Assembly (NCBI GenBank): GCA_000004985.1
Contig: GG738859.1
Reading direction: 5' to 3' (one strand)
Source of the DNA: Naegleria gruberi
Taxonomy: Eukaryota
Length of the DNA stretch: 64,000 nucleotides
A program made the translations under genes and the position numbers. The notes under the pieces were generated by a model. That model saw nothing but the letters and a program-made list of their open reading frames with translations. It was not told the DNA's origin and did no database searches. Below, one piece after another: positions 1 to 60,407 of the stretch (positions are counted from its first letter, which is position 1; the number at the start of each line of letters is the position of its first letter).

Positions 1-408
1 GAATTTGTTAACAAGGTTGTCTCAATTAGTGGGCGTGCAATAGCTCATGCAAGTGAAATTTTGAAACAGGACAGAGAGATAGTGTTAGCTGCTGTTTCTC
101 AAAATGGAAATGCATTGGCTTATGTTAATCATTTTAAGGATGATATGCAAGTGGTACTACGAGCAGTTGAGTCCAATGGTGATTCATTCCAGTTTGCCGA
201 TCCCAAATTACAAGGTGATAAAGAGTTTGTTTTACAGGTTGTGAAACAAAACGCAAAAGCCCTTTTATTTGCATCATCCAAGTTAAAAGCCGATAGGAAT
301 TTTATTTTGAAAATTGTGCAAACTAATGTATTCGCCTACCCTTACATTGGAGAGTACTTTAAAAACGATGAAGAAATTAAAGCAGTTTGGCAAAGTGCAT
401 CTCAATAA
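1..408 (+). CDS. DUF4116-repeat protein, C-terminal part (5' end lies upstream of window)
   Basis: Frame is open from nt 1 and stops with TAA at 406-408. It has three tandem ~35-aa repeats of the DUF4116 type (REIVLAAVSQNGNALAYV / MQVVLRAVESNGDSFQFA / KEFVLQVVKQNAKALLFA). The same repeat family recurs at 24154-25605. Confidence 0.6.
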   Translation, partial: EFVNKVVSISGRAIAHASEILKQDREIVLAAVSQNGNALAYVNHFKDDMQVVLRAVESNGDSFQFADPKLQGDKEFVLQVVKQNAKALLFASSKLKADRNFILKIVQTNVFAYPYIGEYFKNDEEIKAVWQSASQ

Positions 409-416
409 ATATGGTT

Positions 417-2921
417 TTAATGATGTGTTAATATTGAAATGTCAGCGAGGGGTGAAAAGTATTCAACTTGCGCCAAAAGTTTTTGCTTCATAATTGATTC
501 TTTGATGGCATTCATCTTATTTGATTCTGAATTTTCTAGCCAGTATGGATGCTCAATAATTTGCTCAATGGTGATTCGCTCTGCAGGATTCCAGGTAAAT
601 ATTCTTGAAATGAGATCGAGAGCCACCTCTGAGCAAGAATCCAAAGCGAAACTAAATGAATTTCTTTTAGATTGGAGTGTTCTTTCATTCATCTCGAAAA
701 TAATTCTTTCCTTCTCCTTTTCGTTAATTCCTTCCATATTGGAAAAACTGAACAAGGGTGAATGTGGTTGTCTTGGAATGGAAATGTCTTCAATTAGTTT
801 TCTCAACTCATCACATTTCCCTAATACCTTGAATTGATTAAGTGGTAGTAAGTGCTCACTCACTATAAGGCCGAATATAGAATTCCTCTCCTTATTTTCC
901 TTCCTAGATAGATACATTAACTCTGTAAGTATAACTCCAATAGTCCAAATATTTTGCTTTGAAATGATAGAGCTGATATTTCTCTCTGGGACTAAAGCAT
1001 TGGTACACATCATTAACAGAATTTCAGGAGCCCAATATCTCAATGACAATCTTGGCAGCAACTCCAAGTTATTGTTATTTTCCAAATCAGTAAAATCTAC
1101 CAGAACTTCAGTGTCATGTCTTTGTTTGGAAATAAGTAAGTTAGTATCTGGGTTGAGTAAAAGATTATTTGGGAATGAATTGCTGACCTTTTTGAGGAGC
1201 TTGAGCATGAATGAATTTACATCTTCTAAAGTAAAATCTGAATGCAATAAGCTATCCAAATAGTCAGTCAGATATGCTGAGGAATTTTCAATTTCAGATG
1301 GAAGATTCATTTCCACCGAGTTAGGAGTTACTGTTGGTGACTCAAAACTTCTGTGTGCGATGAAATTCTGAATTAATTCATACATTGTCTCTAGATTATA
1401 ATATTTACACCAATCCAATACATTGAATCCCATCTTGTCTCTTTCCATTGGGTTGTATCCTAGTTTGAGTAGTTCATAAACTTGATTGTACATTTCTCGT
1501 GCAGAAAAATGATGCAATAAAGAGTGGCCGTTGTAATCTCGTTTCAGCTTGAATTCTTCAAACTTTTCAGTGGAATCCATTGGAGACATTTCAAATTGAT
1601 CAAACAAGTTCATTGAATCCATTTCATTAACCGATGATTGGTTCTCGAGTACTCCAGATGTCAACTCGTCCAAATCATCTAAAAAGTTATCTTCATCTCT
1701 GACTTCTTGTAGTGATGCATTTTGCCCCAAACCAATAGAGTTTTCCTCTCCAAAGAATTGAAAATCCAATCCACCATTATCGCAAGTCAAAATCTCATGG
1801 TGGCCATACATTAGTTTTACAATGCATTCTAAATTATTTTCCTTAATTATTGGAGTGTAGCTAAATATTTCCAAATCGTGTCTTAAACCTTCCTGAAGTG
1901 GTGTTAATATATGTTTTCTTGTGATGTTATATACATTGGATGGATTGGCCTTTTCAATAAAGCAAATTGTAGTTGGAAGAGAAAATGGAGAAAATAAATG
2001 AGTAATAAGGGACGACTTCATCAGTAAATCATTCTCATTGAGTGAGACATAAATTACAAAGTGGGTAGATATTTTGCTGTGAGCCCTCGAAGGTGACATG
2101 CTCAAGAGTTGCAATTTCAATTCAGGTTGGGGAAGATGTGCTTTTGGTTGAGTAAGACCAAAAGGTGGGAAATTTGGGAATGGTTGTAAAAAGCTCATGT
2201 CCATCTTTGGAACCATTGAAGAGAGAGGTTGAGTGAACAAATCTCTCTTTCTTTTCTTAGCCATTGGATCATTTGCATCATCAGATGAGTTATTATCATT
2301 TACAAGGAGTGGAGGAAAAGATGAATTTGATGAGCTATCTGAGCTTCCAATAAATGATGAAGGTGTGGTGGTAATATCCATGGATGATGTAGCTGCCACT
2401 GGATTCTTTTCTCTATTGCATTCAAACTCATCAATTACTGTTTCAGTAACCCAGGCATATTTGTTCGTCCCAATTTCAACTCCATATGTATTAAGCCTGT
2501 CTTGACCAACTCTCCTACTCGATCTCTCATTAACAATCATGACACCAATACTTCCTAATACTTTGATAGGTCTATTCGAATAGATGGTTGGATGTCCATT
2601 CACATTCGATTTTTGAAAACTAATCACCTTGCCAATTTCATATTTGTGCCCATTAAATCCTCCAATAATTGTCCTATTCTTACTACATTGACCCTCTGAA
2701 TCAATAACAACTGGTTGATTCTTATACATTTGTTCTTCCGAGGATGTTGAACATGATGAAGACTTTTTCTTCTTTTTCTTCTTTACCTTCTCGTCCTTCA
2801 TTGGTTTCATATCCAAATCATCTTCCTTTTTAATATTCAATGTTGAATCAATCATGGTTGCTAGTGATGCTAGACTTTCATCCGATGATTTGTTGTTGAT
2901 CAATTGTTGTTGTGATTCCAT
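417..2921 (-). CDS. large hypothetical nuclear-type protein (834 aa) with C-terminal degenerate protein-kinase-like region, ankyrin-like repeat, poly-Lys tract and KKRKR NLS
   Basis: Single 2505-nt ORF with ATG at 2919-2921 and stop TAA (reverse complement of 417-419). The C-terminus has kinase subdomain VIII-XI-like motifs (RYWAPEIL, IWTIGVIL, HPYW). The catalytic-loop and DFG equivalents are altered (NLLLNPDTN, VDFTD), so it is a probable pseudokinase. A K9 tract and an S/N-rich linker are present. Confidence 0.4.
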   Translation of the reverse strand: MESQQQLINNKSSDESLASLATMIDSTLNIKKEDDLDMKPMKDEKVKKKKKKKSSSCSTSSEEQMYKNQPVVIDSEGQCSKNRTIIGGFNGHKYEIGKVISFQKSNVNGHPTIYSNRPIKVLGSIGVMIVNERSSRRVGQDRLNTYGVEIGTNKYAWVTETVIDEFECNREKNPVAATSSMDITTTPSSFIGSSDSSSNSSFPPLLVNDNNSSDDANDPMAKKRKRDLFTQPLSSMVPKMDMSFLQPFPNFPPFGLTQPKAHLPQPELKLQLLSMSPSRAHSKISTHFVIYVSLNENDLLMKSSLITHLFSPFSLPTTICFIEKANPSNVYNITRKHILTPLQEGLRHDLEIFSYTPIIKENNLECIVKLMYGHHEILTCDNGGLDFQFFGEENSIGLGQNASLQEVRDEDNFLDDLDELTSGVLENQSSVNEMDSMNLFDQFEMSPMDSTEKFEEFKLKRDYNGHSLLHHFSAREMYNQVYELLKLGYNPMERDKMGFNVLDWCKYYNLETMYELIQNFIAHRSFESPTVTPNSVEMNLPSEIENSSAYLTDYLDSLLHSDFTLEDVNSFMLKLLKKVSNSFPNNLLLNPDTNLLISKQRHDTEVLVDFTDLENNNNLELLPRLSLRYWAPEILLMMCTNALVPERNISSIISKQNIWTIGVILTELMYLSRKENKERNSIFGLIVSEHLLPLNQFKVLGKCDELRKLIEDISIPRQPHSPLFSFSNMEGINEKEKERIIFEMNERTLQSKRNSFSFALDSCSEVALDLISRIFTWNPAERITIEQIIEHPYWLENSESNKMNAIKESIMKQKLLAQVEYFSPLADISILTHH

Positions 2922-6200: not shown

Positions 6201-6755
6201 AAGTCAACCAGAAATAAGGCCAAGGCCATTAACTTTGGTATTATCTATGGTATGAGTGAATTTGGTTTATCAAAGAGAATTGGAGTAGACACTCAAGCCG
6301 CCAAGTCATTTATTGAACAATACTTTAAGCAATATCCAGGTATTAAGAATTACATGACCAAGACTATTGAATTTTGTAGAAAACATGGTTATGTAAATAC
6401 TCTTTTCAACAGAAGATGTTGGATACCTGGTATTGAGGACCAAGGATTTGGAGGAAAATCATCTTTTGGTGAGAGAACAAGTATCAATACTCCAATCCAA
6501 GGTACCTCAGCTGATATCACAAAGATTGCAATGAACTCATTACACAAGGCATTCCAGGAGAAGGGATTGAGAACCAGAATGATTATTCAAGTTCATGATG
6601 AAATTGTTTTTGAAGTACCAAAGGATGAAGTGGAAACAGTCGAACCAATCATTAAGGAACTCATGGAAGGTGCAGCATTCTTTGGTGGAACAAACTTTAC
6701 GGTGCCACTAACCGTCGAAGCTACAGTTGACTCAAAATGGTTGGCAGATGAATAA
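3280..6755 (+). CDS. family A (bacterial Pol I-type) DNA polymerase with N-terminal 5'-3' exonuclease domain; 6 exons, ~1085 aa; N-terminal presequence
   Basis: Exons are 3280-3629, 3681-3849, 3892-4458, 4503-4787, 4828-5095 and 5137-6755. Introns are 51, 42, 44, 40 and 41 nt with GTAAGT/GTATGT donors, and splice phases are consistent. The N-terminus MIQSSARNLSKHLMRSGGVAFKRTT resembles an organellar presequence. The 5'-3' exonuclease (5' nuclease) domain is indicated by the motifs KKILLVDGTPLVVRAYFG, GFEADDLIATVA and LVGDTADNIKGVKGIGKK. The central region aligns to the Klenow 3'-5' exo domain but has Exo I altered (CFSTEI instead of FDTETD). Polymerase motifs are A DYSQVELRILAHI, B RNKAKAINFGIIYGMS and C QVHDEIVFE. 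An A7 run precedes the ATG. Confidence 0.85.
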
Positions 6756-6788
6756 ATAATAAATAATTTATTTCCTAGTAAAACTGGT
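6756..6788. promoter_or_regulatory. 33-bp convergent 3' spacer with AATAAA-type hexamers on both strands (shared poly(A) region of the Pol and SET genes)
   Basis: The sequence between the Pol stop TAA (6753-6755) and the SET stop (reverse complement of 6789-6791) is ataataaataatttatttcctagtaaaactggt. It carries AATAAA on the plus strand and TTTATT (= AATAAA on the minus strand). Confidence 0.4.
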
Positions 6789-21486: not shown

Positions 21487-22818
21487 ATGAGAAAATTGCT
21501 TCTGGCCACTTCCGTGTTGGCTCTTGGTGCCGGAATGTCAATGGATCGTGGAATAAAATCCTTCATGCCATTTTCATCATCCTCATCATCAATGGATAAT
21601 AATAATACTTTGGAAGTTTCTAAAATGGTGATGGGAAGTAAAATGATTGTGGAAGCACAAAGTGCTGCTCCAATGACACCACCACCAACACCAGCACTTT
21701 CTCCTAGTAGTGGTAGTGCTACAACACCAGCATCATCGGAACAAAGTGGAGAATCAGCAGAAGGAGAAGGTTCTGGTGCTAGAAATCCTGGTAGAGTTTC
21801 ACCACAAGGATTACCTAGACAACAAGCTGGCGATAATCAATCAGCCACTCCAGCTGCAATTATGAGCAAATTGCCAGGTTATGTTAAGGCACATGCCAAG
21901 ACAAAGGAAAATCAACAATTATTCCAAACATTTTACGAGTTGGGAATACCAAGTGATAGAGAAATGCACATGTTTTCTGGATATATTTCAGCAACTGATA
22001 CTAGATTGAGAATTCCATCACTTGTTGCTTGGACCATTAAAGGACGTACTAGTGGAGGAAGTAAGGAAAGAAAATCCGATAGATCCAATTCTCAATTCCA
22101 TTCGAGTCCATACCTTCCAGAACCATTCAATGCTCAAAATTCTGACTATTCTGGAGAGGGATATGATAGAGGACACTTGTGTCCATGTGGAGATTTTTAT
22201 TATAGTATGGGACAAAAAGCTTTGGATGAAACATTCTACTTGTCACACAATGTAGTTCCACAAGATCCAAATAATAACAGATTTTATTGGCTTAGATTGG
22301 AAATGTTCACTAGAGGAATGGCCAAACAGTTCGATAATGTCCACGTATTGGCTGGTCCACTGTTTGTTCCAGAAGAGTCAGGAAAAAAAAAGTTTGTTCG
22401 TTATGAAGTCATTGGAGATAATAATGTTGCTGTTCCAACACACTTGTACAGAATTTTGGTTGGAGAGAAAAAGTCTGAAAACAAATTTTTCATTCAGGCC
22501 TTTATGATTCCAAATAAGCCAATTCCAAAATCAAAGCCAATTACCGATTTTATTGTTCCAGTTTCAGACATTGAAAAGCTCAGTGGTATGCAATTGTTAC
22601 ACAGAATTGAAAAGACAAGTACATTACCACTTTGTAAACATTTCCCATGCGAATTGAAAGCATGGCAAGAATTGGAAATGCAAAAGATTCTGTGGGATAA
22701 GAGTATGGATTCTAAGGAAAAGGTTGAAAATGAGTGGAATAAGCTCATCCAAGAAGGTTGGAAGCCAAGTCCACAAATTGTTCAACAATTCCAATCAAGA
22801 CTGTCTGATTTAAAGTAA
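21487..22818 (+). CDS. DNA/RNA non-specific endonuclease (EndoG/Nuc1-like) with N-terminal presequence and S/T-rich linker, 443 aa
   Basis: ATG at 21487 after an A8 run. The catalytic DRGH motif is in GYDRGHLCPCGDF, with NVVPQ and AGPLF motifs of the NUC/EndoG family. The N-terminus is MRKLLLATSVLALGAGMS. Confidence 0.8.
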   Translation: MRKLLLATSVLALGAGMSMDRGIKSFMPFSSSSSSMDNNNTLEVSKMVMGSKMIVEAQSAAPMTPPPTPALSPSSGSATTPASSEQSGESAEGEGSGARNPGRVSPQGLPRQQAGDNQSATPAAIMSKLPGYVKAHAKTKENQQLFQTFYELGIPSDREMHMFSGYISATDTRLRIPSLVAWTIKGRTSGGSKERKSDRSNSQFHSSPYLPEPFNAQNSDYSGEGYDRGHLCPCGDFYYSMGQKALDETFYLSHNVVPQDPNNNRFYWLRLEMFTRGMAKQFDNVHVLAGPLFVPEESGKKKFVRYEVIGDNNVAVPTHLYRILVGEKKSENKFFIQAFMIPNKPIPKSKPITDFIVPVSDIEKLSGMQLLHRIEKTSTLPLCKHFPCELKAWQELEMQKILWDKSMDSKEKVENEWNKLIQEGWKPSPQIVQQFQSRLSDLK

Positions 22819-22837
22819 ACATGTGTAAATGATTGGT

Positions 22838-24051
22838 TTATAAGTAAATTGTGCAAATCTTAATGTCCGATAGATGTGAATCAGTTCCCTGCACTACCTT
22901 ATCTAGAATGGATGTCATGAATAGAAAATGAATATTTTCATGGTTATTGTAATAGGCAAATGAAAAACTCTCACCACACATAATACTGGTTTTTCTTGGA
23001 AAGAGTATTTCTTTTGGTTTAGAAATTCTAACTGGTGTGGAGGTAGATGAAAATTCTTGAGTTCCAAGCTGATAATATGAGTTCTGCCCACCCACATAGA
23101 GAGAGCCTGATTCTCCAAGAAGCACGTAATGTCTCCAACCAGCTGAGAATGCTATCCATTTTCATTATAGAAAACTCAATTTAACTTTATAAACTTACAA
23201 ACAATTGGCTCATTAATATCAAGTTTTTTATAATAATTTCCAACATGTTTTCCAACTCCAAAAATTTCATTATTCTCCAATTGAACTATTGTACATAACC
23301 CTCCACAGGTAACATTACTAATTTTCTTTCCATGAAAAGGTATTGTAATTGGTTTAAAAAATTCGTTATTTCTTTCATTAGAAGAGGAGTATGAATTTGC
23401 ATCATTTAATCCACAACCATATAATTCAAATTCAGTAGCAATCACAGTGAATTGAGCACCCATTGCAATTTTTTCAACTTTGTTATAATCTTCAAATGAA
23501 ACAAGTGAAAGAGTTCCATACTTATCAATTCTAGTTCCATTTCCTAATTGTCCACAAGAATTCCATCCAGATCCATAAATCTTGCAGCCTATTTTCACAA
23601 AGAAATGTCCAGCACTAGCACTAGTATAAAACCCGTTAATCTCTTCATTCTCTTCTTTCTCAATTTTAACAAAACTATGTGATTTAGTTTCAAATCCACT
23701 CCAATAAATATTTCCACAATTTGTAATTACATAACTATTGATCTGAGAGCAGAAAGCATCCACAATCATCTCTCCCTTCTCAAGAAACGTTCCAACAGGA
23801 ATGATCTTTAGTGAGTCATCAGTTTTACTCGTACCAAACACTTGTCCGTTATGATTATTACCAATTCCGAATAATTGACCATCCTGCAACAATATCATAG
23901 TATGTTCCCTTCCACATGCAATCTTTTTAACTTTCGAAAGTGATGATTCATCATCATTGGGAAGGAGTGTAATTGGCGAGAAGGTTTTGCTTTTCGAAGA
24001 TTGACACGATTCACAAAATCTATTGGAGCCAGTGGAAAGAACATAGACCAT
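22838..24051 (-). CDS. RCC1-repeat (beta-propeller) protein; 2 exons, ~388 aa
   Basis: On the minus strand the exons are 23199-24051 and 22838-23151 with a 47-nt intron (GTAAGT donor). It has repeated G.N..GQLG blades (GIGNNHNGQVFG, GSGWNSCGQLGNG, VGGQNSYYQLGTQ). Confidence 0.7.
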
Positions 24052-28800: not shown

Positions 28801-28973
28801 CTATCACTGCTGTACTTGTTGCTAAGGAATCAGCTGCCCTTAAAAAGTCAGTTGGTGGAGGTGGTGTCATTGGTCCAACTTCAACACCACTTTTATATGA
28901 AGGAGTTTTGAGTAAGCTTGAACAACAAGGAATTACTGTCGAAGAAACTGTTGAACCATACGAAGAAATGTAA
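25896..28973 (+). CDS. AASS: bifunctional lysine-ketoglutarate reductase / saccharopine dehydrogenase (alpha-aminoadipic semialdehyde synthase, AASS-type), ~1025 aa, N-terminal presequence
   Basis: ATG at 25896 after an A-run; the ORF-track start at 25764 is a TTG. The N-terminal half is the AlaDH/PNT-like LKR domain (GIRREDKNVWERRVPLTPSQCEEL, VFFSHTIKGQ). The C-terminal half is saccharopine dehydrogenase (VLILGSGYVVPPIIDYL Rossmann fold, EIGLDPGIDHM). The whole protein is one uninterrupted ORF. Confidence 0.9.
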   Translation: MHKLSKVFNVSCNHIAKQQAIRQSCYKKTNIISLLEKEGRKQGFHCTVFNSRLRKYSESGETPTIGIRREDKNVWERRVPLTPSQCEELIKEHGIRIVIQPSTTRAFGDEEYREAGCEINEDLSIAQTILAVKEVPAQLLIPNKTYMFFSHTIKGQWYNMNMLDTILEKKIRLIDYERIVKEVEIPGTEKTVEERLVRFGPFAGNAGVIDTLHILGERLLTQYGYTSPFLSISYARNYISLEICKHALNEIGRKISQYGINKDLFPMTFVMTGKGGSVCHGMKEMIQQLQPPELTHKTVEFLRTPQELRALWEKKARGEVTKEDCRKIYILICGPEYMVKHKSQTQPFDKYDYYANPQDYEPIFHETIIPYTKVLLNGMYWDARYPRLITNKQAKQLIDQNRFPLICVGDVSCDPGGSVEFLTKTTTISSPVYVNNIKEDKILDDTVIGEGVAMLAVDHLPAEFPRSSSSLFGSHLFPFIPDLARSFVTMSSPLETQMKYLPTELRKAVITSGGKLTPNFEYIDKIRGPRSSRVLILGSGYVVPPIIDYLIDNPRDIATVTVASDKISSEFKSKYSDSKKSVEFVSNLNVTNDSQLLADLISKCDIVLSLVPAPLHPIVAQQCLKYEKHLVTASYISPEMEQLNEQAKEKGLLFINEIGLDPGIDHMCIMKTLDQVVGQRGGKVESFKSFCGALPAPESSDNPLGYKFSWSPIGVLRASQNPCLFMKDGEVVNVTDGNKLTFLNEKVDVKFKGFNFEVIPNRDSLKYISKYKYLNEKDLKTMMRGTLRFGGFCEVFRLLTLLGYLNQSTVIPADAKTYRDIFCTQLGVPVSTDLKTISAKVTSLYNEKIDAMFSNITDKYQQAIYNRLKANAQTDVSFALKSVKQLGLLSTDSFGEKPKSGLLLDLICTHLEKELALSADDKDLNFMVHEFIVNYEKENVKEKITSTVCVYGDKKEGTATSRTVGLPVAITAVLVAKESAALKKSVGGGGVIGPTSTPLLYEGVLSKLEQQGITVEETVEPYEEM

Positions 28974-28997
28974 TAAATTATTTAATGATTAATTGGA

Positions 28998-33049: not shown

Positions 33050-33115
33050 ACACTCACTGTATAATATTTTCAAAAGTTGAATTCAATTGAATTTTAATTT
33101 ATTTTTTTTATTTCC

Positions 33116-33823: not shown

Positions 33824-34014
33824 TTTTTTTATGAATGTTAGTGTTTGTACTGGAACGAAGGCGGTAGACTAATATGTCGATTTCGGAATGTTTAGGTAGT
33901 CCAGTAGCGAATCTTACGACTAAACAGAATCTTGTAAACATTCTCATTGAAGAAGACACATTGTAGTGGTTTTAACAATGGTTGTAAATTCATAATAATT
34001 CAAAATCAAATGAT

Positions 34015-36383: not shown

Positions 36384-36399
36384 GATTTTAGTAATTTAT

Positions 36400-39300
36400 T
36401 TAAAGTTCTTCTTCTTCGTCCATTGGGGTATTCTTGAAAGCGTTGGCATAAGCATAGAGGCCAATCAATTTCTTGCCTATCGTACCCATCTCACAAATAG
36501 TACACAATTCACCATCATATCTTGGTAAATAAGCAGCTCCACAATATGAGCAAGCAATCTTGTCACTTCCTTGATAAATTGGAGTGTGTGAAATATTACA
36601 AACAACAAATGGATTTCTATCGTCATAATTCAATTCAATCTTGTCGGTAGGTTTGCTTTCCTTTTGTTGGGCCACATAGGCTGCTTGCTTTTGGATCTTT
36701 TCTGGAGGTCCCATCTTAAGCAATCTATTAGCAAATGTAGCTGCTGTTACAAAGTTTTCAAGTTTGAAGCAAATAGCCATGGCAGAATTCAAACCTAACA
36801 TGATGTGATTATTTCTCAATTTACATCTAGTGAAATAAGCTGCAAGTTCGGCTGCTCTCTTTGAATCAGTGGTCATAATATCCTTTCTGTCTAATTCCAT
36901 TCTGAAAGCACTGACGTATTCACAACAAGTAGATAAAGTTTCCTTGAATTCTCTTTCATCCTTCTTTGATAAGATTGGAAGGAACAATAATTGTCTCATA
37001 ATTTCACGTAACATGTCCAAACCATTCTTGATTGTATTTTGATTCGATAAGGCATTGAGAGCGTCCTTCAACTTTAATTGCAACTCAGAAAGTGTTGGCA
37101 CTGCAAGTTTAGGAAGGGTATTCTCTCTGGATCTCTCATTTTCTGATTTACCAGCTTGAAGTGCTAATGGAATACTTGGTTGACATGATGGAGAAGGCAT
37201 TAAAAGATTAGAACCAGCATAAATAGAGAGGAATAATTCTTTGAGAGGAGCAAAATTCTTGATACCAACAGCCTTTTGGAGAATTTCAATGGCAGAATCA
37301 AATGAACCAGCTGCAATGTGATTACCTGGGAATTGAGAATTGACTGGCCACATATCCAAAACGTTTCTTCCAGCATTTGGAGGAACAAAATTGCTTGATT
37401 GAGATGTGGAAATTTGAGCATCAGCAGGAATATCAATGAGATCATAGTCATCAACATTGATTTGATCCTCACCCATTTCATCCAAGTCTGATGGTGGAGG
37501 AACAGATTTCTTGCTTGTTGTGGCTTGTTCCATTCCTGGAATTTCAATACTATCACCGAATTGGTCAAATTCAAGTTCATCAATTTCACCCAAAGATTGA
37601 CCAACATCACCATAATCAATTTCTTGAGTATGTAAAAGAGGCCAGTTACCACCAGCATTGATTGGTACAGGAGGAAGGAAGAGGGAAGGCTTAAAGTTGA
37701 ATTCTGGCATCTTGAAATCTTCTGAGAGGGATTTTTTGACTTCTTCAGCAAGAGCATCCAAACCGTGATTCTTGGCAGTCATATAAGCCAATGCACTTTG
37801 GCCAACACTTTGAAGAACCTTAACTCTTTCTTCAACGTCACCAAGGAAGAGAGCATTGTGGAATCTGGACATTACATCATTTCTGCTGTTGGCAATCTTG
37901 AGCATCAATTTGAGACTTTCTTGATTACCAGTAACACTGTGCAAGAAGGAGAGTCTTTCGACATTCTTTGTTCTTTGATAAGCCTTTTCGACAGCAGAAA
38001 CATCACCTTGGTTCAAAGCTTCCAATCCCAAACTGTTCCAACATTCCTTCTTGTCCAACTTTTGGGCAACTTCAGAGGCAGTCTTGATATCACCACATTC
38101 AAGGGCAAGATTGAATTTGGTACTTTCATCTTCAACAAATTTGAGAGCAATTTCAGGATAACCCTTTTGTTGGAGGTAAGCAATAATGGAATCTCCAAGA
38201 ATCTTGGCTTCACCAATAATCTTCTTAATGTCACCAGTTCTTCCTTGAGATAAGGCAAGTTTGAATCTGTATTCAGTTGCATCAATAGTGATAACCTTGA
38301 CAGTACCTTCTCTATCAATAATTGTAACATTATTATTTTCAATATGGGCAATATAAATTGGGAGATCCAAAGTCTTGATTGTACCAAAATCACCTGATGC
38401 CAAACAATACTTCATGTGATTCAATGTAGTATAAATGAAAACACCATCCTTATCGAAGGCACCACTCTTAATACGAATGGTTTCAACAGTTGTGCAGAAA
38501 GGCTGCAAGTTACTATCACATACAACAACCAAGTGTTTTCCGAGTAAAGCAACTTTAGAGTTATCATCAGACCAAACAACAAACTTGATACCAGCTGAAG
38601 CATGGCTGGAAACAATCTTTTGTTGTTCCAAATCATACAAATGAACTCTATCATCAGTTGTAAAGATCAATCTACCAGAAACTGCTGGGAAAATTCTCTT
38701 AATTGGTCCGACAGTAATTGGAAGTTCCTTAGATCTGTCAGATTGTGTACTGTGAATGAAAATCTTTCTATCCTTTGGATCTAAAGTAGCAAACTTTTGT
38801 AAACCAACAAAAGCAGCAAAGAGGGCCTTTCCTTTTCTAATTGGGTTTCTAATTGGAACTTCATCAGTTGGTCCCTTTTTAATTTCAAACAATTCATAAG
38901 AACCACCATCATGATCTGATGTGAGAATTCCATAAGTGTTGGTTGGGTCAATACAAAGATTTCTTGTTGATCCTGACCATGATTTTCTCAAAACAGCAGC
39001 TGGAGCATCCTTGCCACCTTTAACAACTCTCAAATTCTTTTCCTTCATATACATGAGACAATTCTTGGAAGCAGTGAAAGCTGGTCTTTCTCTTTCCAAT
39101 TTGAAAACAATAAGACCACCATCATGACCAGCAGCAATAAGATTTTGAGTTGGGTGAACATCCAAAACCCAGAATCTTTCATATTCTCTCTTATAACTTC
39201 TAATGAATTGTGATTTTCCAATATCATAAAATCGGAGAGTTTTATCCTCACTGGCAGAAATAATCATATCCTTCTTTTCATGGAAAACTGCACAAGAAAC

Positions 39301-50294: not shown

Positions 50295-52901
50295 ATGGAA
50301 AAGAATTGGAGTGAAACTTCGCTCGAGGATGGGCAGAATATAATACCATCGGATCAAGATATTCGGGTGGTGGAGAATTATTTTCAAAATGATAATAGTG
50401 CTGGTGAAGGAGCTAATCTTGTTGTTGGAGGTGCTGGAGAAGATAATAATTTGGAAATTACAAATCAGCAACAACATCATCATCATGTGATCAATCCGGG
50501 AACAACAATAACACCACCAACCTATTCAAATTTACAACATTATTTATTTCTATCACTTCCATTATGTAGTATTCAATTAAATAATTTACCAGATAATTTC
50601 GGAGGTATTTCACCAGTTACACAAAGTTTTACTAGTTCTTCCTCAGAATTTGAACAGAATAGACTCACTTTTAATGATGCTAATAGGGAAGTTGCAATTT
50701 ATAATAGCAAAAAGTTCATGTTATTTCCATTGATGAAGGGTGATATTATTACAAAAAGGTAGAGTACATTAATTTTGTAATGATTAATAATTTCTCAAGA
50801 CTTCCAACACTAGTTGACTTGAAGGGATTAATGCCAACTGCTGCAAAATCATCGAGTAAGAGAACCTTCTTTGCCATGCTGTATGAACAGAGAAGATTGG
50901 TCATATTTTCAGTTATTTCATCAGATTCTTCTAAACCACATAGCGCAGAATATTTCACTCACTTTGATTTGATGGAGAAAAAAACTAGACCAAATATTAT
51001 TTTGGATTTTCATTGGATTTCAGATTCTTATTTATTAGTTGTGTCGACATACTCAATTGATTTTATTAGTGTATGTATTTTAGTGATTGAAATATTGGAT
51101 TGATTTATAATTTGGAATTATTGGAAATAGGTTAAGGAAAAACACAAACCTGTAAAGACCTTGAAATCAATTTATGAGAATATTCGGTTCTGTAAATTCT
51201 CGCCAATTGATAACTTGTTGGTATTAGCTTTGGAGGGTAAAAATACAGCTCTCTATCCTTACATTATTACTCCAAGTGGCCAAATGAACAAATTGACAAA
51301 AGTTGAGCTAACAGAACTCAATATCGGAGATCATAAACCAATCAAGAGCTCTGAAACTTTCCTCGTTTCAATGTATGTAGTATAATTTGAGATGAATCAT
51401 TTTTGACATTCTATTTCAATACAACAGGTATGGTCGTTGCTGTCTCGTTTGCATATGCTCAGCCAATCATGAAATGCATATCTTCAAGTACAAGCCACAA
51501 AATGTTCAAGCTTTTGTACAACAAAGAATTTTCAATTTATTCTCTGGATCAAACATTGCATTGAATGTTGTTGATTCTCTCTTAATTGTTCACAACTTGG
51601 ATGATAAAACCTCAACTGCCTATGATGTTTTCACAAAACAAGATTACCCAGTCTCTCCTCCTCTTTCCATTTCTCCACATTATACTGTTAAGGATACACT
51701 GACACAGGCTGATATGCAAGTTGATGCTACTGATAGATTATGTAAGTATACGATTGGATTTATTTCCATATTGAGTCACTTTTGTAATTATATTATTAAT
51801 TTAACATTATGTTGAAATAGACAAATCCGATTCTTGGACCTACTGGTATCCAAATTATATCCTCGATAAGGAATTGGGTTATGTTTTCGAGCTTAAACTT
51901 TCCATCTCTCACATGCCAATCAATATGAGAAATAGAAAGGATTCTATAAAATTCCTATTCAGAAGAGTTAACAGTAAGGCTTTGCTCTTGACAACACTGA
52001 GAACTTTTATTGAATCTAAGAGTGAGGAGTTGAAGACTATATCAGAAATTTTAGAACTTGTTAACAAGTATTATTGGAATCAATTAGTTAAACTTGAAAC
52101 TGAAAAACAGGAAAAGTTTAGTGAAAAATTGAAACGTCTTTCCGTATTTACCAAACCTAAAGCTTTGGAATTTGTAGATATTAACATGCTCACAGAAATT
52201 GAAGAAGGTGATGAAATGCAAGAAACACAAATTAATACCATTGGTTATCCAATAATTATGCAATCAGACATGTACAAATTTGTATTTGTTCCAATTGATG
52301 AAGCAGGATCTCTATCTACCATAGAGCTAGTCTCAGTTTTGGTTGAATATGTCAGAGGACTGAAGAAGAGTAATGTGCCAGTTCACAATTTTATTCAAAA
52401 GTTGCTCATTGAACTGCTGGTGAAGGATAATAATTTTTCAATGTTGCATCAATTGATCCAATTCAAGGTCATTGGCGATAGTCAATTGACTGCATTGCAA
52501 ATGTTGCACATTTCCGAAAAGTATCCTCCAGCTTATCAAATTTCCCTTGATATTCTAAAGAGATTGAATGATTATGATTTGTTGTGTGAAGTTCTCCTTT
52601 CAAGGAAGGATGTTTCCAGAGTTTTAGAATTAATGATGGAAAATAGTGAAAAGCATCCATTCAAAATTTCCTACGCTCAAGTATTTGAAGCTGGTAAGTA
52701 GTGTTAAATAATAATTCAATAATTAATTTCACACAATTCAATACAGCTGTCTCCCAAAATAATCCAACTCTTTTCTATACCACTTATGAAATTTTGCAAA
52801 GAATTAACTTGAAACAAAGAAAAACCCTCCTCTTCTCACCTGAAGACAAATGCAAAGAGTATGATGATCTCTACGCTAAACTATTTGTCAATGTAAAATA
52901 A
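50295..52901 (+). CDS. RMC1: RMC1/Mic1-domain protein (regulator of MON1-CCZ1, C18orf8 homolog); 6 exons, ~761 aa
   Basis: Exons are 50295-50739, 50814-51070, 51131-51372, 51428-51741, 51821-52693 and 52747-52901, with 53-79-nt introns (GTGATA, GTATGT, GTATGT, GTAAGT and GTAAGT donors) and consistent phases. Strong matches to human RMC1 are HIFKYKPQNVQAFVQQRIFNLFSGSNIALNVVDSLLIVHNLDDKTS (HILKLNRTGKFALNVVDNLVVVHHQDTETS) and VLVEYVRGL...MLHQLIQFKVIGDSQLTALQMLHISEKYPPAYQISLDILKRL (MLHQFLQYHVLSDSKPLACLLLSLESFYPPAHQLSLDMLKRL). Confidence 0.8.
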
Positions 52902-52910
52902 AACTACTAT

Positions 52911-53924
52911 TTATACTAATACTCTGGAATGCTCTTTCGTTTCAGTATCATATTTGATCATGGCAATTTCCTTACTTTTTGGATAGTTGCCAGAGGTGAA
53001 ACTCAAACAGTTACCCACAATTGAGGAGCAGTACACACCTTTCGAGGAATCCACTGAGCTATGGAAGTGTCCATGGAATGTGGCAGCTGGTTCATGCTTT
53101 TCAATAAATCTTCTAAGTGCAATTGATCCACAATGGAAATCACTGATATTATCACAGCATGTATCTTTTGGAGGCATGTGACAGATCCATATTTGATTCT
53201 TACAATTTTCTTTAGAAAATGAATACCTCTCCTCAATTCTTTCCAATTCTCTTTCAATAGAAAAGGCCTTCACCAATTCACTATCATTTACATCAAATTT
53301 GAAATGATAAAATCCTTCCTTTCCTCTAAAATGTGAATCCTCACTTGGATTCTCCTCCAACAATTGTCGAGTATTTGCATATTCATTATTGAGAATAATA
53401 TCATGGAGTTGCTGAGCATCAAAAGTAGTATATCCTTTCGTTCTTATCACATAAGAATCAACATTCTGAGCCAAAGTATCCTTCACATCCTTTGTATCAA
53501 ATCTCTCAAAATCCTTCTTATGTCCCTTCATGAAAACAATCGATGAGTAGGCCATTATTTCCAAATCATCATTCACTCTCATCATTTCATTATACAACAC
53601 TACAATATTTGTCTCTTTTGTTTTTTCCTTCATAAACTCAACATCGGAATATAAATCAGCATTTCCAAAGCAAACATACACCTTTCCATGCTTGAATTGC
53701 TTCAATATTGGAAGTAGTTTGTCCTCAAAATAGACTCGATGCTTATCAATTCCCTTGTTACTATCGAGATGGGAATATTCATCTAAATTGGATTCCTTCT
53801 TATTCTTCAAATATAAATCACCTCCGATAATAACAGCATCCATCTGATGATCATTTGCATAATTGATCAATTTTTGATATTGGGTAAGATTGCCGTGTAG
53901 ATCTGAGGAGAAGAGTAATTTCAT
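52911..53924 (-). CDS. calcineurin-like metallophosphoesterase, 337 aa
   Basis: ATG at 53922-53924 after an A8 run. The N-terminal motifs are DLHGN and GGDLY, followed by GNAD (VCFGNADLY), with later His-containing motifs (CHMPP, HGHFH). Confidence 0.7.
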   Translation of the reverse strand: MKLLFSSDLHGNLTQYQKLINYANDHQMDAVIIGGDLYLKNKKESNLDEYSHLDSNKGIDKHRVYFEDKLLPILKQFKHGKVYVCFGNADLYSDVEFMKEKTKETNIVVLYNEMMRVNDDLEIMAYSSIVFMKGHKKDFERFDTKDVKDTLAQNVDSYVIRTKGYTTFDAQQLHDIILNNEYANTRQLLEENPSEDSHFRGKEGFYHFKFDVNDSELVKAFSIERELERIEERYSFSKENCKNQIWICHMPPKDTCCDNISDFHCGSIALRRFIEKHEPAATFHGHFHSSVDSSKGVYCSSIVGNCLSFTSGNYPKSKEIAMIKYDTETKEHSRVLV

Positions 53925-54021: not shown

Positions 54022-57000
54022 TTAAATTGTAGGAGGGTTTACATTTTCGAAAGATTCAAATGCTACAATTTCATCCATAACAAGCCAATAAAATGTAATA
54101 CCAAAGAAATCTCTCATTTTCCTCTTCTTATTGTCATTTCTTACAGCAATATAGAAAACTGTGGCAACTGCTTGTCTTGGAAATACTTTACTCTCATAGT
54201 CGTCCAATACTTCAACTGCCTTGTCATGATAATATTTGGTGAAATGTTTAACAATTTCACTAATTTCCAATTTTAGTTTGTAATGGTTCTTTCCACATCT
54301 GACCTCTAATTCCTTTGTATTGAAAAATCCTCCTAATAATTCAACTTCTGATGAGACAAAGTATTGTTGCATGAGCTTTCTCAAATCTGATTTGTACTCT
54401 TCATAAATTTCTAATGCTGCATTGTAGGCGTGCATTATATTTTCATCAAAATAATCCCAGTCGTCATCTATGAGCATTGTTTTGAGATTAGGAAGTTTGA
54501 TAAAGACAGCATCTAAAATTTCAAGATGAGGATCCAGTTTTATCTCTTGAATAGAATCTAGAATGCCAAGCTTTTTTCCGTGAACTGTTTTTTCAAAAAA
54601 GACAGCCTTATCATAAATACTTCCAATAACATCTTCAGAGTGATATGTTTTCTTACCAAAAACTCTTGGCATATAGTGAGGTCTACTGTTGGAGAAAAGT
54701 TCAGTAGGAAGTGGTTTTCTGACACCAGTTTTGGCATAGTCAACTTGATAACTGTGGTGTTTGGCCAATTTCAAACAAGGTTCACTTCTTAGCCCATCCC
54801 CCTCCTTATCGTAATGTTCCAAATGCAAGAATGCAACAACACCAAGGTTGTCATTAATAATGTACTCTGTTAAGAATTCTCTAATAACTCGATAGTCACA
54901 TCCGTCGTGCTTTTCTTCAGGTGGAAGTCCCTCATAATTCATTGGGGGATATTCCTCAAAATTAACTAGGAGTGGATCCCAAAATACTTGGAAAAAGTCG
55001 CCGTCATAGTCGCCTCCACTCATTTTGTTAGCTGCAGGTCTATTGCCTTTTTGGCTGAATACAATTACATCTCTAAGGTGTGATAATTTGCTAATCTTTT
55101 CTGGATCTGTAACAGCTTTGAACTTTCTAATGTCACCAGGGTGAAGGCATGGTGATCTTGTAATTGCTACAGTTCCACTCAAAGTGCCACCATTCACAAA
55201 ACAATTGTCATCATAAAGATCAGAGTCAGAGTTTTCCAATTCAGAAAGTTGGATAAATACTTCATCCTCTTCCAACACTCCATAAAAGTCCACAACTCCC
55301 ATCAATAAAAGAGCCTTGTCAAGAATAATTCTACCATTCTTGAGATCATTCAATCTGTTTCTGATCAAACTATCCTTGATATTGCAAAATACTGGTTCTA
55401 TTTGGTAAAAGAATTTAATGTCCTCTCCCGATTGCACAACTTTAGAAAAGTCGTATTGAGAATCCAAATAGTTGAGAGAGGCCACTTTCTTCATATTCTT
55501 TCCAACGATATTATCTTGTGATTTTCTCAACACTCTCCTCATATACTTCTTATCATTAAATAACTTTTTGATTTCTTCAAGATCTCTATCGAGTAGTTGT
55601 AAAAATACCGAATCTGATACCTTATTGGAACTCAATAAAGCAATCAATTGTCTATTCAAACTAGCAAATCTATTTCTTTTCGAGTAAGTAATCAGTTCAA
55701 ACTCGCTACTGGAGGAATCTATGAACTTTTCCTGACTCTTAGATAGGAGAAGATCCAAATCTGAATATAAATGAATATCAGGATCTACAACAACAACTCC
55801 CTTCAACCCTCCCATACGAAATTGGAATGCTGATGGTATGTATTCTTTGCCAGCAAATGAGATTTGGAATTTCTTGGTTAATTCTACAGCAAATTCTAGT
55901 GATATTCTTCCTACACCATCTGTAAACACATAATTGTTTCTGGTAATGTCTGGAATAATTTCATACTCTTTTGAGATGCCTTCATACGTGTGTGAAAAGC
56001 ATTGTCCAATTCTTGCTGCATACCTTGCTTTAACTTTGATATGAGAAAAATTACCAAGAGAATTGATAATATTTCTTGGGGTGAAACTTCCATTCGAATA
56101 AACGAACCAAGAACTGGAACATTGTTAGAAATGTTTGAAATAATATAAGACGTACCTGTGGGCTCTAAGTTGACTGGTAGAATAAGCAAGCATTTCATAT
56201 TTTCTGTTAAAAACTAGAAGGCCCTTCTTTAGCACAATCTCAATTCTCTCATGCAAGTTTGTAAATTTTTCAGCACTAAGTTTATGAAGATCTTCATCGC
56301 AGAATGTGATTCTCAAAAAGTGATCTTCATTCTTTTCCTTATATTTTCTCAAAACTCTATTACCACCCTCAACTGATTTGTCAAAAAATCTCCAACCTGT
56401 TGGTGTAATCATTACTTTACGAATATTGAAAAAGTTTGTATCAAAATCAATGAATGCCGTGTCATTATGTTTCAATTTTTGATCAGCTAACCGTTGATTG
56501 AAATGTTCTAGGAATTCAGATGGATAGATGTTTTTCTCATTCAATACTTCTCTCATGGCACGGTCAACCATTTCATAGTCATGATCTTTGTTAATATATC
56601 TTGTAATAGTGTCCACTATTGCTTCCAATCTTTCTCTATTGTGTAGAATTCCTGGTATCTTAGTATCTAAGCAAAACAGCAAATATACTGTATTGAAGGA
56701 AAAATTATGAAACAATGGAAAGTCCAAGCTTTCATCATATTGGAATGTATCGATTTGCTTCCTTTTGATTTTCTTATCTCTCATTACCAAAGGATATGGA
56801 TAATTATGACCCTTCAGTAGGGAACTCACATCAGATGAAACAGTGAGCAGTAGAGATCTACCCCATCTGAAATTGTTCAACCACATGGATGATATGCTAT
56901 CTTGTTGTGAATAGTCAGGAGCTGCCATTCTTGTACGAAATGCTTCATCAGGCCTCTTACGGTAGATGAATGGCACATTTCTAAGTTCAATGGCTAATTC

Positions 57001-58068
57001 TGTGACACCAACAATAACACGTCTCACATTCTCTCGCTTAATGTCCATCCAATAGTCATGATTAGAGTTGAATGTTGCTTGTAATTTAATATCACCAGTT
57101 GCAGACCAGTATACTAATGATACCTTTCTCTCCAATAATCCATGTCCTACTTGTTCCTTATTTACACATAAAAATGTTTCATGCTTATTGTCATCAAAAT
57201 TACCAATCTCCATATTTATCCAGTTTAACTCCACTGACCCATACTCCACTAAATCATTGGGTTTTTCAGATTTGGTTGTTGATTTTGATGATGTTACACT
57301 TTCTTCAATTATTACAGGTGGTCCAATAATCTGCACAGGTTGTTTCTTCTTTTCTTTGGCCTTATCCTTCTTTTGAGTTGGTTCCTTCTTTTCCTTTGGT
57401 TTTAGACTGGGAAAGTTATTTTCATTATCAAGGGCCACAGGTTTTGGTGGCTGATTGACAATTACAGGTTGATGAATATTGGTAACTGGTGGATTGTGAA
57501 TTCTATCATTATCATTCCTCCTATAATTGTTATTTCCTCCTTTATAATTATTATTGTCTCCTCTTTGCTCTTTATATTCTCGATTATTATTATTTCCTGA
57601 ATATTCCCTATGCTTACTCGATTTATCATTGTTATCATTGAAATTATTATTATTATTGTAATTATTATTTCCTCTATATTCTCTATTGTTGTTGCCATTA
57701 CGCGAGTATCTATCATTATTATCATTGTAATTCTTCTGATAATTATTATTGTAATTGTAATTATTATTTTGATAATAGCGATTAGGAGGAGGCTTCTTGC
57801 TATTATCATAACTGCTACCATTACTCGGATTGATTAAATCACCAGTAGTATTATTAATTATATAATTTCTCGCTTTGTTTTGTTGATAAAAAGCCTTTTT
57901 CTGAGATGATTCGGAAACATGTTCCTCTGAATCATTAATTATTAATTCCTCTTCATTATGATGAGAACTACTACTACTACTACTACTTGCTCCACCATTC
58001 CTAGTACTACTTGCTCCTCTATAAATCTGATAATGTTGCTGATTTGTCTTTTGATTGGGATTAAACAT
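54022..58068 (-). CDS. eukaryotic cellular RNA-dependent RNA polymerase (RDR family, RNAi pathway); 2 exons, ~1334 aa
   Basis: On the minus strand the exons are 56156-58068 and 54022-56113, with a 42-nt intron (GTACGT donor, ccag acceptor) and consistent phase. The catalytic signature SGGDYDGDFFQVFWD is the DxDGD motif of the RDR double-psi barrel. An extended RdRP core follows. The first ~200 aa are an N/Y/R-rich low-complexity region. Confidence 0.9.
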
Positions 58069-60390: not shown

Positions 60391-60407
60391 TTTTGAGATT
60401 GAACAAA

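What the first reader, a model, noticed from the sequence alone, without database searches (positions are those of the whole stretch)
52899..52913. Convergent genes abut with only 8-33 bp between stop codons, forcing 3' transcript overlap
Five convergent pairs have stop codons only 8-33 bp apart, and a further pair is 66 bp apart. The 3' processing signals of one gene must therefore lie inside the coding region of its neighbour on the opposite strand, so mature mRNAs must overlap antisense at their 3' ends. This is an extreme degree of compaction for a genome that still has introns and about 1-kb genes. Combined with the RdRP gene, it predicts abundant natural antisense pairs and possibly endo-siRNA production or transcriptional interference as a regulatory layer. 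The stop-to-stop gaps are listed below.
- DUF4116 / pseudokinase (409-416): 8 bp.
- RMC1 / metallophosphatase (52902-52910): 9 bp.
- Exosome subunit / COPA (36384-36399): 16 bp.
- EndoG / RCC1 (22819-22837): 19 bp.
- LKR-SDH / TTC4 (28974-28997): 24 bp.
- Pol I / SET (6756-6788): 33 bp.
- PUB-RING / Cys-rich (33050-33115): 66 bp.
Basis: seen in the sequence. Interest (0 to 1): 0.65.

Follow-up and report, generated by a model that had tools for sequence, protein, structure and literature searches.

The report
Tightly abutting convergent genes in Naegleria
In this Naegleria gruberi chromosome segment, real genes on opposite strands end only 8-33 bases apart, so their messenger RNAs must overlap by a few dozen bases; this is the normal compact layout of this group of amoebae, not a special regulatory device.

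Summary
The window is Naegleria gruberi nuclear DNA. All seven stop-to-stop gaps (8, 9, 16, 19, 24, 33, 66 bp) sit at the stated coordinates, and all 14 flanking genes are real, with genuine C-termini.

The gaps are the short end of a continuum. The window has 12 convergent junctions (median 49.5 bp), which are shorter than tandem (159.5 bp) or divergent (304.5 bp) spacers. Annotated loci from N. lovaniensis, Willaertia magna, Acrasis kona and two environmental Naegleria contigs show the same pattern (median about 44 bp).

Published direct RNA sequencing of N. gruberi gives AAUAAA as the poly(A) signal, cleavage 15-20 nt downstream and a median 3' UTR of 39 nt (22 nt when the signal overlaps the stop codon). 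In this window such stop-embedded signals occur in 12 of 18 genes at tight convergent junctions, against 3 of 18 elsewhere.

I predict mature-mRNA overlaps of about 17-39 nt for the six pairs at or below 33 bp, and none required for the 66-bp pair. The main signal lies at each gene's own stop codon. Only the cleavage site and downstream element fall in the neighbour.

Two pairs are conserved across Naegleria species and two are not. An siRNA or regulatory role is untested. This is a known kind of feature, of modest interest.

The parts
52902..52910 (.). 9-bp spacer between the RMC1 stop (52899-52901, TAA) and the metallophosphatase stop (52911-52913, complement of TAA). This is the flagged junction.
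50295..52901 (+). RMC1-like gene, multi-exon. The last intron is 52694-52746 (53 nt) and the last exon is 52747-52901.
   Evidence: Pfam RMC1_C in the penultimate exon. The spliced C-terminus continues the profile to position 246 of 248. Coding score.
52911..53924 (-). Metallophosphoesterase gene, a single exon of 337 aa.
   Evidence: Pfam. Its C-terminus is identical to the NCBI N. gruberi model and aligns to the last residue with the Willaertia and Acrasis orthologues.
52897..52902 (+). AATAAA overlapping the RMC1 stop codon (a dual-use stop/poly(A) signal), preceded by TGTA.
52910..52915 (-). TATAAA overlapping the metallophosphatase stop codon, a candidate variant poly(A) signal.
   Evidence: TATAAA is depleted on the coding sense strand.
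409..416 (.). 8-bp spacer between the DUF4116 gene (ends 408, +) and the kinase-like gene (417-2921, -).
404..409 (+). AATAAA overlapping the DUF4116 stop codon.
416..421 (-). ATTAAA overlapping the kinase-like gene's stop codon.
36384..36399 (.). 16-bp spacer between the RNase PH exosome subunit (35541-36383, +) and COPA (36400-40269, -; exons 40269-40108, 40016-39855, 39747-36400).
36395..36400 (-). AATAAA starting on the last base of the COPA stop codon.
22819..22837 (.). 19-bp spacer between EndoG-like nuclease (21487-22818, +) and the RCC1-repeat gene (22838-24051, -; intron at about 23126-23175).
22814..22819 (+). AGTAAA overlapping the EndoG stop codon, a candidate variant signal.
22837..22842 (-). 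TATAAA overlapping the RCC1 stop codon, a candidate variant signal.
28974..28997 (.). 24-bp spacer between LKR-SDH (25896-28973, +) and TTC4 (28998-30230, -). It is an AT-rich near-palindrome that gives signal-like hexamers on both strands.
   Evidence: The pair is conserved in N. lovaniensis (28 bp) and in an environmental Naegleria contig (12 bp).
28972..28977 (+). AATAAA overlapping the LKR-SDH stop codon. A stop-overlapping AATAAA is also present in two other Naegleria species, in different registers.
28981..28986 (-). ATTAAA in the spacer, 12 nt after the TTC4 stop.
6756..6788 (.). 33-bp spacer between the family-A DNA polymerase (ends 6755, +) and the SET-domain gene (6789-9344, -).
6751..6756 (+). 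AATAAA overlapping the polymerase stop codon. A second copy lies at 6758-6763.
6767..6772 (-). AATAAA in the spacer, 17 nt after the SET stop.
33050..33115 (.). 66-bp spacer between PUB-RING (ends 33049, +) and the Cys-rich gene (33116-34365, -). It is long enough that the mature mRNAs need not overlap.
54022..58068 (-). RNA-dependent RNA polymerase gene. It is intact and has one 42-nt in-frame intron (56114-56155) that contains a TAA.

Best explanation
These junctions are the ordinary 3'-end architecture of a compact heterolobosean genome.

Convergent spacers carry no promoter, so they have shrunk to what 3'-end formation tolerates.

At most tight junctions the poly(A) signal is built into the stop codon. 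It is AAUAAA, or the variants AUUAAA, UAUAAA or AGUAAA, formed as NN-UAA-A. Cleavage then falls about 18-25 nt past the stop.

That point lies beyond the 8-33 bp spacer, inside the last few codons of the gene on the other strand. The two mature mRNAs are therefore complementary over roughly 17-39 nt at their 3' ends.

The A-rich signal of one strand reads as a U-rich tract on the other strand. This could serve as the downstream element for the partner.

Shown: the geometry, the reality of the genes, the hexamer positions, the strand bias of the hexamers, and the same spacing in relatives.

Inferred: the actual cleavage sites, the co-expression of partners, and any role of the complementary U-rich tract. 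The overlap is most likely a tolerated by-product of compaction rather than a dedicated regulatory layer.
For: Identity: COPA, LKR-SDH and the metallophosphatase are 100% identical to N. gruberi proteins.

Geometry and gene reality.

Spacing by orientation: convergent spacers are the shortest class, p=4e-4.

Relatives show the same spacing. The annotated or verified convergent gaps in Willaertia, N. lovaniensis, Acrasis and two environmental Naegleria contigs are 5, 5, 12, 16, 20, 28, 31, 31, 34, 39, 48, 49, 56, 66... bp, with a median of 43.5 bp.

Published poly(A) mapping in N. gruberi (PMC11529991):
- AAUAAA is the top signal.
- Cleavage lies 15-20 nt downstream.
- The median 3' UTR is 39 nt, or 22 nt with a dual-use stop codon.
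- There is a U-rich downstream element.

In the window:
- The base after the stop codon is A in 24 of 36 genes (p=4e-5).
- A signal-class hexamer overlaps the stop in 12 of 18 genes at convergent gaps under 100 bp, against 3 of 18 elsewhere (Fisher p=0.006).
- AATAAA, ATTAAA, TATAAA and AGTAAA are all depleted on the coding sense strand against a codon shuffle (z -5.2, -2.9, -3.1, -2.7). The antisense strand is not depleted.
- Predicted overlaps are 17-39 nt.
Against: - No transcript data for these genes could be reached, so every cleavage site is predicted from genome-wide medians.
- RNase PH has no signal-class hexamer on its strand, and no AATAAA on its strand in any of the four Naegleria species compared. 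The simple hexamer rule is therefore incomplete.
- The variant-hexamer set was chosen after looking at the data, and n is only 36 genes.
- Two tight pairs (COPA/RNase PH and LKR-SDH/TTC4) are conserved across three or four Naegleria species. LKR-SDH/TTC4 survived an inversion of its block. This is compatible with some selective linkage and not only neutral compaction.
Confidence: 0.7

Rival explanations
1. Regulatory natural-antisense layer. The 3' overlaps form double-stranded RNA that RdRP, Dicer and Argonaute process into endo-siRNAs. Alternatively, convergent polymerases interfere with each other, so that partners regulate one another.
For: - An intact RdRP gene lies in the window.
- Naegleria has Dicer and Argonaute homologues (PMC13315211).
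- Predicted overlaps of 17-39 nt exist.
- Two pairs are conserved within the genus, one of them through an inversion.
- 3'-UTR-mediated interference between convergent genes is documented in yeast (PMC3900390).
Against: - There are no small-RNA or expression data.
- Functional RNAi is not demonstrated in Naegleria.
- The overlaps are short for Dicer substrates (my own knowledge).
- The stop-embedded signals act to minimise overlap rather than extend it.
- Partners are functionally unrelated housekeeping genes.
- RMC1/metallophosphatase and EndoG/RCC1 are not paired in N. lovaniensis, and RMC1/metallophosphatase is not paired in Willaertia or Acrasis either.
Confidence: 0.13
2. No real overlap of mature mRNAs. 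Either cleavage happens within or at the edge of the spacers because 3' UTRs are ultrashort, or partners are never expressed in the same cell state, so complementary RNAs do not coexist.
For: - N. gruberi does make ultrashort 3' UTRs (median 22 nt with dual-use stops, PMC11529991).
- Two window genes have AATAAA inside the last 20 nt of coding sequence (DLH and flavodoxin), which predicts 3' UTRs of 5-15 nt.
Against: - For the 8-, 9-, 16- and 19-bp gaps the two UTRs together would have to be at most 8-19 nt.
- The hexamers there sit on the stop codon, not upstream of it.
- The published signal-to-cleavage distance is 15-20 nt.
- Most partners are housekeeping genes (COPA, exosome subunit, DNA polymerase, LKR-SDH) that are likely to be expressed together. 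This last point is inference.
Confidence: 0.12
3. Annotation artefact: one ORF of each pair is spurious, or its true stop lies elsewhere.
For: The Cys-rich gene and the C-terminal part of the SET gene have no Pfam support at their 3' ends.
Against: - Pfam domains for 13 of 14 genes, several reaching the last residues.
- 100% matches to deposited N. gruberi proteins through the C-terminus.
- Orthologue C-termini align to the end.
- The annotated frame scores best of six for all 14 ends.
Confidence: 0.03
4. Shared hairpin-type bidirectional terminators sit in the spacers.
For: The spacers at 6756-6788 and 28974-28997 are AT-rich near-palindromes.
Against: 80-nt windows centred on the 12 junctions fold no better than dinucleotide shuffles (mean z -0.5, none below -2.2). 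The near-palindromes are what two opposed AATAAA motifs produce by necessity.
Confidence: 0.02

Closest known systems
Overlapping transcription in compacted eukaryotic genomes (microsporidia and nucleomorphs; Williams et al. 2005, 'A high frequency of overlapping gene expression in compacted eukaryotic genomes', seen here only as a title in the search)
   Same: Tiny intergenic spacers force transcripts of adjacent genes to overlap. The overlap is seen as a by-product of compaction.
   Different: Naegleria is a free-living amoeba with a roughly 41-Mb genome (my own knowledge), canonical AAUAAA signalling and introns. The predicted overlaps are short 3'-3' overlaps, not multigene read-through transcripts.
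Convergent gene pairs with overlapping 3' UTRs in Saccharomyces cerevisiae (645 pairs, more than 20% of genes; PMC3900390)
   Same: Tail-to-tail protein-coding genes whose mature mRNAs are complementary at their 3' ends. This is a possible source of transcriptional interference.
   Different: Here several spacers are shorter than a single 3' UTR, so the overlap reaches into the partner's coding sequence. Naegleria, unlike budding yeast, keeps RdRP, Dicer and Argonaute homologues.
Dual-use stop codon / poly(A) signals in Giardia, Spironucleus and N. gruberi (PMC11529991)
   Same: AAUAAA overlapping the stop codon, giving 3' UTRs of about 22 nt. I found it here at RMC1, DUF4116, DNA polymerase, LKR-SDH and COPA, among others.
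   Different: That paper reports 11-13% of N. gruberi stops as dual-use and does not discuss gene orientation. In this window dual-use signals are concentrated at tight convergent junctions, and variant hexamers seem to be used in the same way. Both points rest on a small sample.
cis-natural antisense transcript pairs that yield nat-siRNAs in plants and animals (PMC3032780 and PMC1524920)
   Same: The tail-to-tail geometry, and the presence of RNAi-pathway genes in the genome.
   Different: There is no small-RNA evidence here. The overlaps are tens of nucleotides rather than hundreds.

Membership tests
Convergent (tail-to-tail) cis-natural antisense gene pair | Two genuine genes on opposite strands with their 3' ends facing each other. 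| tested here: met
Convergent (tail-to-tail) cis-natural antisense gene pair | Mature transcripts of the two genes overlap and are complementary. | not testable with these tools
   Predicted at 17-39 nt from hexamer positions plus published signal-to-cleavage distances. No transcript data were reachable.
Dual-use stop codon / poly(A) signal (PMC11529991) | An AAUAAA hexamer overlaps the stop codon. | tested here: met
   Nine of 36 window genes have it. Seven of the nine are at convergent gaps under 100 bp. With the variants the split is 12 of 18 against 3 of 18.
Dual-use stop codon / poly(A) signal (PMC11529991) | The 3' UTR is about 20 nt, ending 15-20 nt after the hexamer. | not testable with these tools
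   This needs the direct RNA reads. Only genome-wide medians are available.
nat-siRNA / endo-siRNA locus | Dicer-size small RNAs from both strands map to the overlap. | not testable with these tools
   No small-RNA data. RdRP is present, but that is not a defining feature.
Overlapping protein-coding genes (coding sequence overlapping coding sequence) | The coding sequences share nucleotides. | tested here: not met
   The stop codons are separated by 8-66 bp.
Hairpin-type bidirectional terminator | A stable stem-loop at the junction, beyond what composition gives. | tested here: not met
   Mean z -0.5 against dinucleotide shuffles.

The most novel reading that the evidence does not exclude
Tight convergent pairs in Naegleria are co-inherited 3'-end modules. 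Selection places the poly(A) signal inside the stop codon to cap the antisense overlap at about 20-40 nt. The A-rich signal of one gene doubles as the U-rich downstream element of its partner. The residual double-stranded overlap is used by the RdRP, Dicer and Argonaute machinery to cross-tune the partners. This would explain why COPA/RNase PH and LKR-SDH/TTC4 stay paired across the genus even through an inversion.
Probability: 0.1. Interest if true: 0.55.

Novelty: new member of a known kind. Interest (0 to 1): 0.27.

Why it matters
It documents, for a free-living discoban model organism, how far convergent genes can be packed while canonical AAUAAA-dependent 3'-end formation is kept.

The apparent solution is to put the signal in the stop codon and let cleavage fall in the neighbour's last codons. 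This affects three things:
- Annotation: UTRs of neighbours overlap, which creates ambiguity in unstranded RNA-seq.
- Transgene design in Naegleria: 3' flanks of only about 30-40 bp, partly coding for the neighbour, should carry the whole terminator.
- Small-RNA biology: these junctions are defined places to look if endogenous siRNAs exist in Naegleria.

It does not change any general principle.

Tried and rejected
- Looking up the window's own genes in the contig index to find RNA-derived contigs. EndoG and the deposited COPA model are not on record. The metallophosphatase hit only a genomic metagenome contig with the intron retained. No transcript ends could be obtained.
- The supplement of PMC11529991, which would hold the N. 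gruberi 3' UTR table, is not held. The N. gruberi genome paper is not held either.
- Literature searches for Naegleria convergent or antisense overlap, or small RNAs, found nothing specific.
- Hairpin terminator idea: rejected.
- The in-frame stop inside RdRP as a pseudogene or readthrough site: rejected, it lies in a 42-nt GT-AG intron.
- TGTAAA as a stop-embedded signal: rejected, because it is enriched rather than depleted in sense coding sequence.
- Strict one-partner-only asymmetry of canonical signals in tight pairs: no consistent rule.
- Conservation of the flagged RMC1/metallophosphatase pair: not conserved in Willaertia, N. lovaniensis or Acrasis.
Full report
**Origin of the window**

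The long ORF at 36400-39648(-) is 100% identical to the NCBI protein 'coatamer alpha subunit [Naegleria gruberi]' from a 530,355-bp scaffold. LKR-SDH and the metallophosphatase also match N. gruberi proteins at 100%. The window is 31-38% G+C. About 82% of it is coding, and it holds about 36 protein genes with short GT-AG introns of 42-53 nt.

**Checking the observation**

| Gap | Coordinates |
|---|---|
| 8 bp | 409-416 |
| 9 bp | 52902-52910 |
| 16 bp | 36384-36399 |
| 19 bp | 22819-22837 |
| 24 bp | 28974-28997 |
| 33 bp | 6756-6788 |
| 66 bp | 33050-33115 |

Pfam confirms DUF4116, protein kinase, DNA_pol_A, SET, Endonuclease_NS, RCC1, LKR/SDH domains, the TTC4 Wheel domain, PUB plus RING, RNase_PH, COPA, RMC1_C and Metallophos. 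Only the Cys-rich gene has no domain.

Several checks show that the stop codons are the real ones.
- Domain profiles run to within a few residues of the C-terminus for the DNA polymerase, LKR-SDH, TTC4 and COPA.
- The deposited N. gruberi COPA maps to 36403, directly before the stop.
- The metallophosphatase C-terminus equals the deposited model and aligns to the last residue with the Willaertia and Acrasis orthologues.
- The RMC1 last exon (52747-52901, after a 53-nt intron) continues the RMC1_C profile to position 246 of 248. The RCC1 last exon holds an RCC1 repeat.
- The RNase PH and TTC4 C-terminal peptides are conserved in other Naegleria species.
- A codon-usage score puts the annotated frame first of six for the last 50 codons of all 14 genes.

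The 'mis-called ORF' refutation therefore fails.

**Is this more than chance?**

The window has 12 convergent junctions: the seven listed plus MYST/SLD5 (82 bp), an unknown gene/flavodoxin (95 bp), EF-G-like/unknown (128 bp), FtsJ-G-patch/ATP synthase delta (246 bp) and unknown/uL16 (357 bp).

The median spacers are 49.5 bp for convergent junctions, 159.5 bp for tandem and 304.5 bp for divergent (Mann-Whitney p=4e-4). Six of 12 convergent spacers are at or below 33 bp, against 1 of 22 others (Fisher p=0.004). The listed pairs are the short end of a continuous distribution in which promoter-free spacers are the shortest.

**Relatives**

Annotated or sequence-verified convergent gaps in related genomes are as follows.

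| Source | Gaps |
|---|---|
| Willaertia magna | 5, 31, 39, 48, 56, 66 bp |
| N. lovaniensis | 16, 28, 31, 49 bp and larger |
| Acrasis kona | 5, 20, 126 bp |
| Environmental Naegleria contig L006 | 12 and 34 bp |
| Environmental Naegleria contig L007 | 30 bp |

The overall median is 43.5 bp. Tight convergent junctions are therefore a trait of the whole clade.

Partner identity is only partly conserved.
- COPA/RNase PH is kept at 16, 31, 34 and 30 bp in four Naegleria genomes.
- LKR-SDH/TTC4 is kept at 24, 28 and 12 bp in three. In N. lovaniensis the LKR-TTC4-Ras block is inverted relative to N. gruberi, with the pair intact.
- RMC1/metallophosphatase is not paired in N. lovaniensis, Willaertia or Acrasis. 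In Acrasis the metallophosphatase instead abuts a RasGEF gene at 20 bp.
- EndoG is not next to RCC1 in N. lovaniensis.
- In Willaertia, COPA is convergent with SLD5. LKR-SDH there faces a different, unannotated ORF at 32 bp.

**How it most likely works**

A 2024 nanopore direct RNA study of N. gruberi (PMC11529991) reports the following:
- AAUAAA is the top poly(A) signal and lies 15-20 nt upstream of cleavage.
- There is a UGUA upstream element and a U-rich downstream element.
- The median 3' UTR is 39 nt.
- 11-13% of stop codons overlap AAUAAA, and those 3' UTRs have a median of 22 nt.
- Only 1,238 AAUAAA hexamers occur in all coding sequence.

That paper does not discuss convergent genes or antisense.

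In this window:
- 34 of 36 stops are TAA, and the next base is A in 24 of 36 (p=4e-5).
- AATAAA overlaps the stop in 9 genes. Seven of these lie at convergent gaps under 100 bp.
- Against a codon-shuffle null, AATAAA is about ten-fold depleted on the coding sense strand (3 against 29.9, z -5.2).
- ATTAAA, TATAAA and AGTAAA are also depleted (z -2.9, -3.1, -2.7). This suggests they act as signals too.
- TGTAAA is enriched (z +3.8).
- The antisense strand is not depleted of AATAAA (49 against 38.7).

Counting these four hexamers, a signal overlaps the stop codon in 12 of 18 genes at tight convergent junctions, against 3 of 18 other genes (Fisher p=0.006). The hexamer set was chosen after seeing the data.

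At the flagged junction the + strand reads TGTA-AAATAAAA. This gives UGUA followed by AAUAAA, with the RMC1 stop inside the hexamer. The - strand has TATAAA over the metallophosphatase stop, followed by TTTTATTTT, which is the complement of the RMC1 signal.

Placing cleavage 17-21 nt after the hexamer gives the following predictions.

| Gap | Prediction |
|---|---|
| 8 bp | 28-36 nt overlap of the mature mRNAs |
| 9 bp | 27-35 nt overlap |
| 16 bp | COPA mRNA ends 6-10 nt inside RNase PH |
| 19 bp | 17-25 nt overlap |
| 24 bp | 31-39 nt overlap |
| 33 bp | 24-32 nt overlap |
| 66, 82, 95 bp | no overlap required |

The picture differs in detail. The main signal is at the gene's own stop codon or in the spacer. 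Only the cleavage site and the downstream U-rich zone lie in the neighbour's last codons. The stop-embedded signals keep the overlap small.

The junctions show no hairpin signal.

An endo-siRNA or interference layer remains pure prediction. RdRP is intact. RNAi in Naegleria is inferred only from Dicer and Argonaute homologues (PMC13315211). I could reach no small-RNA or transcript data.

**Comparison with what is known**

Overlapping transcription in compacted eukaryotic genomes is an established topic in the literature found. Overlapping 3' UTRs of convergent genes are well known, with 645 pairs in budding yeast (PMC3900390). Dual-use stop/poly(A) signals are already described for N. gruberi.

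My searches found no explicit description of 3'-overlapping convergent genes in Naegleria. I therefore file this as a new member of a known kind.

The one mildly new angle is the concentration of stop-embedded signals at tight convergent junctions, and their retention in different registers at LKR-SDH in three species. It rests on 36 genes and a choice made after the fact, and it needs a genome-wide test.

**Limits**

All cleavage sites are predictions. RNase PH has none of the four signal hexamers within 120 nt of its stop in N. gruberi, and no AATAAA on its strand near its stop in any of the four Naegleria species compared. Start codons of some multi-exon genes are approximate, which affects the tandem and divergent spacer values but not the convergent ones. 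One 'tandem' spacer (554 bp) in fact holds a 5S rRNA gene.

Noticed in passing
window 19145-19263 (+): A full-length 5S rRNA gene (Rfam RF00001, 105 bits). It sits between SLD5 and an unknown gene, in what I had counted as a 554-bp tandem spacer. It is a dispersed Pol III gene among Pol II genes.
   Followed up: no
window 60391-60407: Only 17 bp separate the stop of the RGS-domain gene (60388-60390) from the ATG of the next gene on the same strand (EF-G-like GTPase, 60408). The upstream 3' UTR and the downstream promoter and 5' UTR must therefore overlap coding sequence, or the two genes are co-transcribed. Annotated tandem gaps of 13-23 bp also occur in relatives, and a 49-bp tandem gap was read off from the corrected N. 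lovaniensis ORF.
   Followed up: partly
window 56114-56155 (-): The RdRP gene looks like two ORFs split by an in-frame TAA. The stop lies in a 42-nt GT-AG intron whose length is a multiple of three, so the gene is intact (54022-58068).
   Followed up: yes
whole window, coding regions: Strong strand asymmetry of AATAAA in coding sequence: 3 sense against 49 antisense in 40 kb. The codon-shuffle expectations are 29.9 and 38.7. A transcript running antisense into a neighbour would meet a canonical poly(A) signal about every 800 nt, against about every 13 kb in sense. TGTAAA is enriched in sense (29 against 14.7).
   Followed up: partly
window, all start codons: A very A-rich context precedes most ATGs, so the in-frame upstream translation often reads 'KK' before the Met. 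This looks like a strong Kozak-like AAAA(A/G)ATG preference.
   Followed up: no
L008 (N. lovaniensis PYSW02000026.1) compared with window 15.8-40.3 kb: Macro-synteny is preserved, but the LKR-SDH/TTC4/Ras block is inverted between the two species. The neighbours on the promoter side of LKR-SDH and RNase PH differ, while the two tight convergent pairs and two divergent pairs (TTC4/Ras and MYST/ATP synthase delta) are kept. The tandem adjacencies I could assess were not kept.
   Followed up: partly
L003 10001-11031 (N. lovaniensis): The deposited metallophosphatase model (P0123, 275 aa) ends in a frameshifted tail. The true conserved C-terminus is in a second ORF at 10696-11031. This points to a frameshift, a small intron or an annotation error in that genome.
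   Followed up: partly
L009 13099-14757 (-) (Willaertia magna JBEGDK010000153.1): An unannotated 552-aa ORF with a P-loop-like motif lies convergent to LKR-SDH, only 32 bp from its stop, in a stretch annotated as a 1.7-kb gap.
   Followed up: no
L005 (ENA ERZ929261, run ERR1078381, metagenome contig k127_418224): A 3.8-kb metagenome contig encodes the identical 337-aa metallophosphatase and the adjacent RMC1 exons. N. gruberi-like DNA is therefore present in that environmental sample.
   Followed up: no
window 19446-20093 (-) and 20632-21297 (-): Two adjacent small genes of unknown function (about 216 and 221 aa) have similar N-termini (MNT...N..LLV.F, signal-peptide-like). They end in similar sequence (...YQQVV*/...YQQV*), so they are probably tandem paralogues.
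   Followed up: no
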